Virus record (IMG/VR): IMGVR_UViG_2563366953_000005
Span: 1-39,664 of that record
DNA: 39,664 nucleotides
Strand: one strand, 5' to 3'
DNA from: a virus
Taxonomy: Duplodnaviria > Heunggongvirae > Uroviricota > Caudoviricetes
In this document: piece after piece, positions 7,657 through 8,041 of the stretch
How the letters are laid out: every line of letters begins with the position of its first letter
Position numbering within the stretch: position 1 is the first letter of the stretch
The notes under the pieces: generated by a model
What the model was told of the DNA's origin: nothing
Seen by the model: the letters and a program-made list of their open reading frames with translations, nothing else
The model's database searches: none
Translations under genes and position numbers: made by a program

Positions 7657-7671
7657 TTACCTTTCAGGTAA
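7657..7671. promoter_or_regulatory. Operator-like palindrome TTACCTTTCAGGTAA
   Basis: Perfect TTACC-N5-GGTAA inverted repeat, identical to the copy at 24275-24289 and matching the family of sites in the immunity region. Confidence 0.45.
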
Positions 7672-7708
7672 TTCTCAAAACATGCTGGATAGCAAACAAA
7701 TTATTTGC

Positions 7709-7728
7709 TACTGTATATTTATACAGTT
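7709..7728. promoter_or_regulatory. LexA (SOS) box
   Basis: TACTGTATATTTATACAGTT matches the E. coli LexA consensus TACTGTATATATATACAGTA at 18 of 20 positions (CTGT-N8-ACAG core intact); lies 20 bp upstream of the ATG at 7748. Confidence 0.65.
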
Positions 7729-7747
7729 TTTGCATGGAGAAGATAAG

Positions 7748-8005
7748 ATGCAGCAGTATCACTATCCACTAGAAGACGGATTTACCGAAAGGATTCACAC
7801 GCCGGGAGGCGTCAGATCACTGGTGGAGGGATCGCACTTGATGAAATTACTCCGGGATCTCGATAAGGATGGATTTAATGTCGATGGCCCACTTGCCGAA
7901 CTGACTGCACTGATTAACTACGTCACCAGCTCACAGATGTCTATGCAGGATCTGCAAACACATCTCGACTATTGTGCCGAACAATTACGAAAACAAATCC
8001 GGTAA
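7748..8005 (+). CDS. Small SOS-box-associated protein of unknown function (candidate antirepressor/induction factor)
   Basis: 85 aa from ATG 7748 with SD ggag at 7736-7739; plus-strand gene embedded in the minus-strand late operon between the internal-virion-protein genes and the tailspike gene; LexA box immediately upstream. The 107-aa version in the ORF track would start inside the LexA box and is less likely. Confidence 0.55.
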   Translation: MQQYHYPLEDGFTERIHTPGGVRSLVEGSHLMKLLRDLDKDGFNVDGPLAELTALINYVTSSQMSMQDLQTHLDYCAEQLRKQIR

Positions 8006-8012
8006 ATTTAAG

Positions 8013-8041
8013 GGCCGCGAAAGCGGCCTGTGACATGTCAC
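8013..8041. repeat. GNRA-loop hairpin (ggccgc-gaaa-gcggcc) fused to palindrome GTGACATGTCAC (copy 1 of 3)
   Basis: Perfect 6-bp stem with GAAA loop at 8013-8028, directly followed by the 12-bp perfect palindrome at 8030-8041; located 3' of the 7748-8005 gene. Confidence 0.45.

What the first reader, a model, noticed from the sequence alone, without database searches (positions are those of the whole stretch)
7657..8041. Near-consensus LexA box driving an 85-aa orphan gene embedded in the late operon: candidate SOS-controlled antirepressor
Seen in sequence: TACTGTATATTTATACAGTT at 7709-7728 matches the LexA consensus at 18/20 positions and lies 20 bp upstream of an ATG (7748) with a good SD; the gene is on the opposite strand to all surrounding structural genes, is preceded by an operator-type palindrome (7657-7671) and followed by a GNRA hairpin plus the GTGACATGTCAC palindrome. 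The repressor-like protein of this phage (33749-34333) shows no S24 autocleavage signature. Established knowledge: in phage 186 (Tum) and the Gifsy prophages, non-cleavable repressors are inactivated by small antirepressors whose genes are LexA-repressed; in P22 the antirepressor region sits at the equivalent place next to the tailspike gene. Inference: this 85-aa protein is the SOS-induced trigger for prophage induction, or another SOS-timed function. The protein itself has no motif I recognise, so it may be an undescribed antirepressor family.
Basis: partly seen in the sequence, partly recalled or inferred. Interest (0 to 1): 0.72.

Follow-up and report, generated by a model that had tools for sequence, protein, structure and literature searches.

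The report
Known LexA-controlled phage antirepressor Ant

Summary
The LexA box at 7709-7728 is the only such site in the window and is far better than chance.

The window is a Uetakevirus genome (epsilon15/phiV10/SPN1S group). The 85-aa ORF at 7748-8005 is 88% identical to Ant of Salmonella phage SPC32H, the 'Anti-repressor protein' chain of PDB 5D50. The 194-aa HTH protein at 33749-34333 is the homologue of its partner Rep (5D50 chain A, 43% identity) and has no S24 peptidase domain.

The LexA box, Shine-Dalgarno sequence, start codon and gene position are conserved in ten relatives. Phage SPC32N differs from SPC32H in this region by one base, inside the ACAG half-site.

The SOS-induced antirepressor reading is therefore supported. 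The suggestion of an undescribed family is not: the system was published in 2013, with a structure in 2016.

The palindrome at 7656-7672 belongs to a genus-wide operator family (TTACC-N5-GGTAA). The epsilon15 GenBank record already annotates these sites as repressor sites. It probably serves the divergent tailspike promoter.

GTGACATGTCAC occurs exactly three times, at syntenic places, in each of four genomes and remains unexplained.

Interest is low: a correct rediscovery.

The parts
7709..7728 (.). LexA (SOS) box TACTGTATATTTATACAGTT overlapping the inferred ant promoter
   Evidence: 18/20 to consensus and unique in the window, with 0/100 shuffles matching. Heterology index 1.5 against a next-best of 10.8. 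CTGT and ACAG are invariant in the E. coli, Salmonella and Enterobacter relatives while the spacer varies. SPC32N carries ACAG->AAAG at the homologous site.
7686..7714 (+). Inferred ant promoter: -35 TGGATA (7686-7691), 17-bp spacer, extended -10 TGcTACTGT (7706-7714)
   Evidence: Inference from conservation. CTGGA.A and the TG-N-TA are invariant in the 10-genome alignment. The generic sigma-70 scan did not call it, because the -10 matches only 3/6. No transcription start data.
7736..7739 (+). Shine-Dalgarno GGAG, 8 nt before the ATG
   Evidence: Read from the sequence; invariant in 10 genomes.
7748..8005 (+). ant: 85-aa antirepressor, orthologue of SPC32H Ant
   Evidence: 72/82 identical to SPC32H_020 'ant', E 3e-56. 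PDB 5D50_E at E 1.6e-46. PHROG 450 at E 1e-47.
8012..8029 (.). GC-rich hairpin with GAAA loop; terminator shared by ant (+) and the converging late unit (-)
   Evidence: Fold of the 51-nt stretch 8000-8050, -17.3 kcal/mol. Called terminator-like on the - strand, with tail CTTAAATTTA. The homologous hairpin is annotated as a rho-independent terminator in epsilon15. The stem is conserved and the loop changed in SPC32H.
8030..8041 (.). GTGACATGTCAC perfect palindrome, one of three copies (also 25248 and 27513); function unknown
   Evidence: Three exact copies in the window. Exactly three exact copies at syntenic sites in each of SPC32H, epsilon15 and Klebsiella phage BUCT711.
7656..7672 (.). Repressor-type operator ATTACCTTTCAGGTAAT (core TTACC-N5-GGTAA) between ant and the tailspike gene
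   Evidence: 11 matches to the 17-mer pattern against 1.5 expected, with 0/100 shuffles reaching that. Core invariant in 10 genomes. The homologous site, epsilon15 19895-19911, is annotated protein_bind 'repressor'. The same operator plus a CATATGTGGTT-N5-GGTAATA module recurs upstream of another late unit at 24274.
33749..34333 (+). rep: 194-aa two-HTH repressor without an S24 domain, target of Ant
   Evidence: Pfam shows HTH_3 and a YdaS-type HTH only. PDB 5D50_A 'Repressor' at E 3.5e-42. 43% identical to SPC32H Rep and 99.5% to the phiV10/ZX5 repressor.
33678..33694 (.). Operator copy in the divergent promoter region upstream of rep (a weaker copy starts at 33631)
34390..34468 (.). Two operator copies (34390-34406 and 34452-34468) downstream of rep, flanking a TTGACA-containing early rightward promoter region

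Best explanation
The window is a temperate Uetakevirus (phiV10/epsilon15/SPN1S-like) genome. Positions 7709-8005 are its SOS-sensing lytic switch, orthologous to the ant module of Salmonella phage SPC32H.

In a lysogen, host LexA sits on the box at 7709-7728. The box overlaps the -10 and start region of the ant promoter, so ant stays silent. Meanwhile the non-cleavable two-HTH repressor Rep (33749-34333) occupies TTACC-N5-GGTAA operators at the early and late promoters.

DNA damage activates RecA and LexA cleaves itself. The 85-aa Ant is then made. Ant, a tetramer in SPC32H, binds Rep dimers and breaks up the DNA-binding Rep tetramer, so Rep leaves its operators and lytic genes are expressed.

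Shown here: orthology of Ant and Rep to the crystallised pair, the quality, uniqueness and conservation of the LexA box, absence of an S24 domain in Rep, and co-occurrence of ant and rep.

Inferred from the SPC32H work: LexA binding, SOS induction, the Ant-Rep contact in this E. coli-type pair, and the promoter hexamers.
For: Orthology of Ant: 88% identity to SPC32H Ant over 82 aa, the same protein as PDB 5D50 chain E, and the gene is annotated 'ant: anti-repressor protein' in KC911856/KC911857 at the same position and orientation between the 46-aa membrane protein gene and the tailspike.

Orthology of Rep: matches 5D50_A and 5D4Z_A over its full length at 43% identity, with no Peptidase_S24.

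LexA box: unique in the window and near-consensus. Its half-sites are invariant while the spacer drifts across the E. coli, Salmonella and Enterobacter relatives. In the region aligned, the only difference between SPC32H and SPC32N is a C->A change in the ACAG half-site.

Co-occurrence: ant and rep are found in the same ~35 phage records and in 529 and 537 of 5426 complete E. coli genomes respectively.

Literature: PMC7380047 and PMC9638917 give the mechanism, PMC9986798 describes the Rep tetramerisation domain that also contacts Ant, and PMC9782041 reports that overexpressing the 99.5%-identical ZX5 repressor blocks the lytic cycle.
Against: No experiment exists on this E. coli-type pair. Rep here is only 43% identical to the Rep that was crystallised with Ant, so the contact is inferred, not shown.

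The primary papers (Kim & Ryu 2013, J Virol 87:11775, PMC3807360; Kim et al. 2016, PNAS 113:E2480, PMC4983836) are not in the held library. Details such as constitutive Ant synthesis in SPC32N rest on my recollection of the abstracts plus secondary citations.

The promoter hexamers are weak and were not called by the generic scan.

The Klebsiella relatives have ATGT instead of CTGT in one half-site (heterology index about 6.8, similar to the SPC32N mutant site at 6.6). LexA control may therefore not be universal in the family.
Confidence: 0.9

Rival explanations
1. The protein is an Ant homologue, but in this E. coli lineage it no longer acts on the resident Rep, which is only 43% identical to SPC32H Rep. 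Instead it serves another SOS-timed role, or acts mainly in trans on other prophages.
For: Ant is much more conserved than its supposed target: 88% against 43% between the E. coli and Salmonella phages. phiV10-type relatives carry a second, Bro-N 'anti-immunity/anti-repressor' gene just downstream. That gene, not the small ant, is the one tested in ZX5.
Against: ant and rep co-occur in essentially every record and genome that has either. The LexA box, Shine-Dalgarno sequence and gene position are kept in lineages with all Rep variants. This window has no Bro-N gene and no S24 repressor, so no other SOS input to Rep is visible. All Rep variants share the same operator core and domain layout.
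Confidence: 0.06
2. The palindrome at 7656-7672 is an operator for ant itself, rather than for the divergent tailspike promoter. Rep would then control ant directly, for example by shutting ant off again or stimulating it.
For: It lies only 36 bp upstream of the LexA box, centred roughly 57 bp upstream of the start site implied by the inferred promoter. It is invariant in all ten genomes.
Against: The same operator is followed on the - strand by a conserved CATATGTGGTT-N5-GGTAATA module, both here and upstream of another late unit at 24274. Further copies precede the terminase genes (27401 and 27419). This is the pattern of a late-unit control element. It lies outside the inferred ant core promoter.
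Confidence: 0.25
3. The LexA-like palindrome is a chance AT-rich palindrome and ant is expressed constitutively or from late read-through.
For: None beyond the lack of direct binding data for this phage.
Against: No shuffle out of 100 or 200 produced a site as good. The half-sites are conserved with a variable spacer in relatives. A point mutation in the homologous site distinguishes SPC32N from SPC32H. From my recollection of the Kim & Ryu 2013 abstract, SPC32N makes Ant constitutively and enters the lytic cycle.
Confidence: 0.02

Closest known systems
Ant/Rep/LexA antirepression system of Salmonella phage SPC32H (Kim & Ryu 2013, J Virol 87:11775; Kim et al. 2016, PNAS 113:E2480; PDB 5D50, 5D4Z)
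   Same: Ant is 88% identical and Rep is homologous over its full length. The gene order is the same: late unit, 46-aa membrane protein gene, terminator hairpin, ant on the opposite strand, operator, tailspike. The LexA box sits at the same distance from the start codon. The operator core TTACC-N5-GGTAA and the GTGACATGTCAC palindrome are both shared.
   Different: Rep is only 43% identical (phiV10 immunity type). The LexA spacer is ATATTTAT rather than ATGTTTAT. The host is E. coli rather than Salmonella. There are no experimental data for this pair.
Coliphage 186 Tum and the Gifsy-1/Gifsy-3 antirepressors (GfoA/GfhA)
   Same: The logic is the same: a non-cleavable repressor is inactivated by a small LexA-repressed antirepressor (PMC7380047; PMC3121763 listed).
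   Different: Sequence profiles detected no relationship. Ant hits no DinI/Tum-type or other Pfam family. From my recollection of the Kim & Ryu 2013 abstract, the authors call Ant structurally distinct from the antirepressors of sipho- and myoviruses.
Phage P22 immI region (mnt-arc-ant next to tailspike gene 9)
   Same: An antirepressor gene placed beside the tailspike gene of a podovirus (established knowledge).
   Different: P22 Ant is about 300 aa and is controlled by Mnt, Arc and the sar antisense RNA, not by LexA. Ant here gave no Pfam hit to ANT, AntA or Bro-N and no Rfam family was found in the region.
Bro-N 'anti-immunity/anti-repressor' proteins of phiV10 (p23), ZX5 (ORF4) and Tyrion (gp20)
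   Same: Encoded immediately downstream of the small ant in those relatives. The C-terminal part of phiV10 p23 (residues 150-180) resembles Ant residues 2-32, with 45% identity and E 9e-07. PHROG 1760 'anti-repressor' matches Ant residues 27-75.
   Different: These are about 194-235 aa proteins with an N-terminal Bro-N domain. The gene is absent from this window, where ant is followed directly by the hairpin and the 46-aa membrane protein gene.

Membership tests
SPC32H-type small antirepressor Ant (PDB 5D50 chain E; PHROG 450) | Full-length sequence homology to SPC32H Ant (86 aa) | tested here: met
   72/82 identical, E 3e-56. phmmer against PDB gives E 1.6e-46, residues 2-83 aligned to 3-84. 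PHROG 450 at E 1e-47.
SPC32H-type small antirepressor Ant (PDB 5D50 chain E; PHROG 450) | Gene lies between the end of the late structural unit and the tailspike gene, on the opposite strand | tested here: met
   Same order and orientation as SPC32H_019/020/021 and as eight other relatives.
SPC32H-type small antirepressor Ant (PDB 5D50 chain E; PHROG 450) | LexA box overlapping the ant promoter | tested here: met
   Box at 7709-7728 aligned to the SPC32H box and to the SPC32N mutation site. Unique and near-consensus. Conserved in relatives. The overlap with the promoter is inferred.
SPC32H-type small antirepressor Ant (PDB 5D50 chain E; PHROG 450) | Cognate Rep: a roughly 195-aa repressor with two HTH regions and a C-terminal tetramerisation/Ant-binding part, and no S24 autocleavage domain | tested here: met
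   5D50_A at E 3.5e-42, residues 1-190 aligned to 2-197. Pfam shows HTH_3 at 106-147 and a YdaS-type HTH at 21-61, with no Peptidase_S24 at E<=1.
SPC32H-type small antirepressor Ant (PDB 5D50 chain E; PHROG 450) | Ant physically binds Rep and releases it from operator DNA | not testable with these tools
   Known for SPC32H (PMC9638917; PMC9986798). Here there is only co-occurrence of the two genes.
SPC32H-type small antirepressor Ant (PDB 5D50 chain E; PHROG 450) | Expression induced by DNA damage through LexA cleavage | not testable with these tools
   Needs LexA EMSA, or RT-qPCR with mitomycin C in lexA+ and lexA(Ind-) hosts.
E. coli-type LexA operator (SOS box) | 20-bp palindrome TACTGT-(AT)4-ACAGTA with intact CTGT and ACAG, and a low heterology index | tested here: met
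   18/20 to consensus. Heterology index 1.5 with a 20-site matrix recalled from memory, whose own sites score 0.3-9.6.
Tum (phage 186) / DinI-related antirepressors | Sequence relationship to Tum/DinI | tested here: not met
   The Pfam scan at E<=1 returned only a sub-threshold DUF724 hit. That Tum carries a DinI-like region is my own knowledge. No direct pairwise comparison was run.
P22-type Ant / Bro-N-ANT antirepressors | ANT, AntA or Bro-N domains | tested here: not met
   None of these families was hit in Pfam. There is only a short local similarity to the C-terminus of Bro-N proteins.
LexA/CI-type autocleavable repressors (S24 peptidase) | Peptidase_S24 domain with the Ser/Lys dyad in the phage repressor | tested here: not met
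   No S24 hit for Rep at E<=1, nor at E<=0.01 in ten other ORFs: five of the immunity region (33014-34941) and five elsewhere in the window.

The most novel reading that the evidence does not exclude
The switch may have layers not described for SPC32H. A Rep operator lies 36 bp upstream of the LexA box, so Rep could couple ant and the divergent tailspike promoter. The 12-bp palindrome GTGACATGTCAC is kept at exactly three syntenic operon ends in E. coli, Salmonella and Klebsiella Uetakeviruses, and could be the site of an unidentified factor governing termination or read-through between late units. In addition, the near-identical Ant acting on Reps that are only 43% identical would predict cross-induction between heteroimmune Uetakevirus prophages.
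Probability: 0.25. Interest if true: 0.4.

Novelty: already known. Interest (0 to 1): 0.15.

Why it matters
The module decides when a very common E. coli prophage wakes up. Homologous sequence is present in about one in ten complete E. coli genomes: 529 of 5426.

The mechanism was worked out in Salmonella phage SPC32H, so nothing new about it emerges here.

The practical value is in annotation. No Pfam or NCBIfam model covers Ant. RefSeq and most phage records therefore call it 'hypothetical protein'. At least one study of a near-identical phage, ZX5, tested the neighbouring Bro-N protein as 'the anti-repressor' and never mentions LexA or SPC32H.

Tried and rejected
Primary papers: I tried to read Kim & Ryu 2013 (PMC3807360 and its DOI), Kim et al. 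2016 (PMC4983836) and, under a PMC id recalled from memory, the epsilon15 genome paper (PMC2698709). None is held. I used secondary citations and GenBank/PDB annotation instead.

Operator consensus: I recalled an operator consensus string, ATTACCWDWWNGGTAAT, for epsilon15. A literature search for it found nothing, so it stays unverified. The epsilon15 GenBank 'repressor' protein_bind features make the same point.

Promoter scan: the generic sigma-70 scan found no ant promoter. The promoter given in the report is inferred from conservation only.

Rfam: the only hit was a sub-threshold Histone3 match to the hairpin, which is chance. There is no sar-like RNA.

The 10-bp palindrome TAGCAAACAA/TTATTTGCTA at 7690-7710 is not conserved in SPC32H, so I dropped it.

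The longer 107-aa reading from ATG 7682 was rejected. It would start upstream of the LexA box and promoter, it lacks a Shine-Dalgarno sequence, and the annotated, crystallised protein is 86 aa.

The other exact CTGT-N8-ACAG matches, at 20262 and 24804, score poorly (heterology index 13 or more) and are not LexA boxes.

I did not run the large protein-database searches or structure prediction. The PDB and GenBank matches had already settled the identity.

Full report
**Observation**

- TACTGTATATTTATACAGTT lies at 7709-7728. It matches the LexA consensus at 18 of 20 positions.
- It is the only site in the window within three mismatches of that consensus, and none of 100 dinucleotide-preserving shuffles produced one.
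- With a heterology-index matrix built from 20 E. coli LexA boxes that I recalled from the literature (own knowledge, approximate), the site scores 1.5. That is better than most of the sites used to build the matrix.
- The next best position in the window scores 10.8, and none of 200 shuffles reached 1.5.
- The looser core CTGT-N8-ACAG with one mismatch is not enriched (14 found, 14.4 expected). The evidence therefore rests on the full 20-mer.
- GGAG at 7736-7739 precedes the ATG at 7748 by 8 nt.
- The ORF 7748-8005 (85 aa) is on the + strand between genes on the - strand.
- The palindrome ATTACCT-TTC-AGGTAAT (7656-7672), the GAAA-loop hairpin (8012-8029) and GTGACATGTCAC (8030-8041) are all there.

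**What the window is**

The region matches temperate podoviruses of the genus Uetakevirus: phiV10, PAS61, TL-2011b, ZX5, SPN1S, SPC32H, epsilon15 and Tyrion. The neighbouring 790-aa protein is the tailspike. The 672-aa + strand ORF beyond it is an acyltransferase-3/SGNH protein, and the gene at the corresponding place in SPC32H is annotated O-antigen acetylase.

**Identity of the 85-aa protein**

In the SPC32H and SPC32N GenBank records, the gene at the same position and orientation is annotated 'ant: anti-repressor protein'.
- The window protein is 72/82 (88%) identical to it, E 3e-56.
- It matches one PDB sequence, 5D50 chain E, 'Anti-repressor protein', at E 1.6e-46.
- PHROG 450 (function 'unknown') matches at E 1e-47, and PHROG 1760 'anti-repressor' matches more weakly.
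- Neither Pfam nor NCBIfam has a model for it.

**Identity of the repressor**

The 33749-34333 product carries two HTH regions (Pfam HTH_3 at 106-147, a YdaS-type HTH at 21-61) and no Peptidase_S24 at E<=1.
- It aligns end to end with 5D50 chain A, 'Repressor' (E 3.5e-42), and with the 5D4Z C-terminal fragment.
- It is 43% identical to SPC32H Rep.
- It is 99.5% identical to the repressor of phiV10 and ZX5. For the ZX5 repressor, overexpression was reported to block the lytic cycle (PMC9782041).
- Ten other ORFs, five of them in the immunity region (33014-34941), show no S24 domain either.

**Comparative evidence for the LexA box**

I aligned the tailspike-ant intergenic region from ten phages of E. 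coli, Salmonella, Enterobacter and Klebsiella. It shows discrete conserved islands in otherwise drifting sequence:
- a block ATTCTATTACC...AAACC..ATATG.AT;
- the operator core ATTACC-N5-GGTAA;
- CTGGA.A;
- a TG-N-TA;
- the LexA half-sites;
- GGAG and the ATG.

In the six non-Klebsiella genomes CTGT and ACAG are invariant while the 8-bp spacer varies (ATATTTAT, GTATTTAT, ATGTTTAT, ATAAGCAT, ACATATAT). This is the pattern expected for a protein-binding site.

In the region aligned, SPC32H and SPC32N differ only by ACAG->AAAG inside this box. From my recollection of the Kim & Ryu 2013 abstract, SPC32N makes Ant constitutively and goes lytic. That paper is not held, so this detail is from memory. 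The sequence difference itself is a tool result.

The four Klebsiella relatives have ATGT in place of CTGT. Their heterology index is about 6.8, close to the 6.6 of the SPC32N mutant site. LexA control may be weaker or lost in those phages.

**Mechanism**

The review PMC7380047 cites Kim & Ryu 2013 among the Salmonella prophages in which LexA self-cleavage lets an antirepressor be made that inhibits the repressor by protein-protein contact. [quoted passage not shown] PMC9986798 adds that the C-terminal tetramerisation domain of Rep is also the Ant-contact domain.

Applied to this window:
1. LexA on 7709-7728 keeps ant silent in the lysogen.
2. DNA damage removes LexA.
3. Ant is made and strips Rep from its operators.

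From conservation I infer the promoter as -35 TGGATA (7686-7691) and an extended -10 TGcTACTGT (7706-7714), which puts the LexA box over the -10 and the start site. The generic scan did not call this promoter, so it remains an inference.

**The 'operator-type palindrome'**

The pattern ATTACCT-N3-AGGTAAT occurs 11 times in the window within three mismatches, against 1.5 expected, and no shuffle out of 100 reached that. Searching the core TTACC-N5-GGTAA with at most one mismatch gives 12 sites. All lie between the ORFs I mapped, with one (start 3169) doubtful:
- around rep: 33294, 33631, 33679, 34391, 34453;
- at 31287 and 31349;
- before the terminase genes: 27402, 27420;
- before the portal unit: 24275;
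- here: 7657.

The same core occurs at syntenic places in SPC32H, epsilon15 and a Klebsiella phage. The epsilon15 GenBank record already annotates these as protein_bind 'repressor', including 19895-19911 between gp19 (the Ant homologue) and the tailspike.

On the - strand, the operator at 7656-7672 and the one at 24274 are each followed, 30-45 nt later, by CATATGTGGTT-N5-GGTAATA. I therefore read the 7656-7672 site as part of a repressor-controlled late-type promoter for the tailspike, divergent from ant. An additional effect on ant cannot be excluded.

This also corrects 'embedded in the late operon'. The hairpin at 8012-8029 is terminator-like on the - strand and is annotated as a terminator in epsilon15. 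ant therefore sits between two late transcription units.

**GTGACATGTCAC**

This 12-bp perfect palindrome occurs exactly three times in the window (8030, 25248, 27513). It also occurs exactly three times in each of SPC32H, epsilon15 and BUCT711, at syntenic places. In epsilon15 coordinates those places are after terL, at the end of gp18, and at the end of gp49, two of them immediately before annotated terminators. I have no explanation for it. It is recorded as unexplained.

**Distribution**

Sequence homologous to the ant region is present in 529 of 5426 complete E. coli genomes, always annotated 'hypothetical protein'. rep is present in 537. Ant and Rep occur in the same ~35 phage records.

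Ant is far more conserved than Rep between the E. coli and Salmonella phages (88% against 43%). That would allow cross-induction between heteroimmune prophages, but this is speculation.

**Comparison and verdict**

The element is a member of the SPC32H Ant/Rep/LexA system by every test that can be run on sequence.
- It works like Tum of phage 186 and the Gifsy antirepressors, but the profile scans detected no sequence relationship to them.
- It resembles the P22 immI region only in its position next to the tailspike.

The claim of a possibly undescribed family is not correct. Novelty: already known. Interest: low.

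Noticed in passing
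window 8030-8041, 25248-25259, 27513-27524; L003 (SPC32H) 2145, 19634, 38629; L004 (epsilon15) 2142, 19517, 39612; L005 (BUCT711) 431, 18526, 26462: The perfect 12-bp palindrome GTGACATGTCAC occurs exactly three times in each of four Uetakevirus genomes from E. coli, Salmonella and Klebsiella. The copies lie at or near ends of genes and operons, several of them next to terminator hairpins. No function is known to me and none is annotated.
   Followed up: partly
window 7600-7672 and 24215-24290 (- strand): Two late-unit upstream regions (tailspike and the portal unit) share a module: operator ATTACCTGAAAGGTAAT, then 30-45 nt, then CATATGTGGTT-N5-GGTAATA. This may be a late promoter or activator motif containing an operator half-site.
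   Followed up: partly
window 27401-27435, 31286-31364, 33293-33694, 34390-34468: Eleven firm TTACC-N5-GGTAA operator copies (the ten in these ranges and at 24275, plus 7657) sit in every intergenic control region, including directly before the terminase and portal units. Rep therefore seems to repress late units directly. All Rep variants, down to 43% identity, share the same operator core, which raises the question of how immunity specificity differs.
   Followed up: partly
L009, L010, L011, L005 (Klebsiella relatives), region homologous to window 7709-7728: The Klebsiella Uetakeviruses have ATGT instead of CTGT in the left LexA half-site. Their heterology index is about 6.8, similar to the SPC32N mutant site, so LexA control of ant may be weak or lost there.
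   Followed up: partly
L006 1171-1455 / L012 147-731 (phiV10 p23); absent from the window: phiV10, ZX5, Tyrion and some Klebsiella prophages carry a Bro-N 'anti-immunity/anti-repressor' gene just downstream of the small ant. Its C-terminus (residues 150-180) resembles Ant residues 2-32 (E 9e-07). The ZX5 study (PMC9782041) tested this protein, not the small Ant homologue, as 'the anti-repressor'.
   Followed up: partly
window 7748-8005: Annotation gap. No Pfam or NCBIfam model covers Ant and PHROG 450 is labelled 'unknown function'. The gene is therefore called 'hypothetical protein' in 529 complete E. coli genomes and in most phage records, despite a crystal structure (5D50).
   Followed up: yes
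window 3134-5152 (+): A 672-aa acyltransferase-3 plus SGNH protein lies next to the tailspike. The gene at the corresponding place in SPC32H is annotated O-antigen acetylase, so this is probably a serotype-conversion gene of the prophage.
   Followed up: partly
window 7690-7710: A 10-bp inverted repeat, TAGCAAACAA/TTATTTGCTA, lies in the spacer of the inferred ant promoter. It is present in phiV10 but not conserved in SPC32H, so it is probably not functional.
   Followed up: yes
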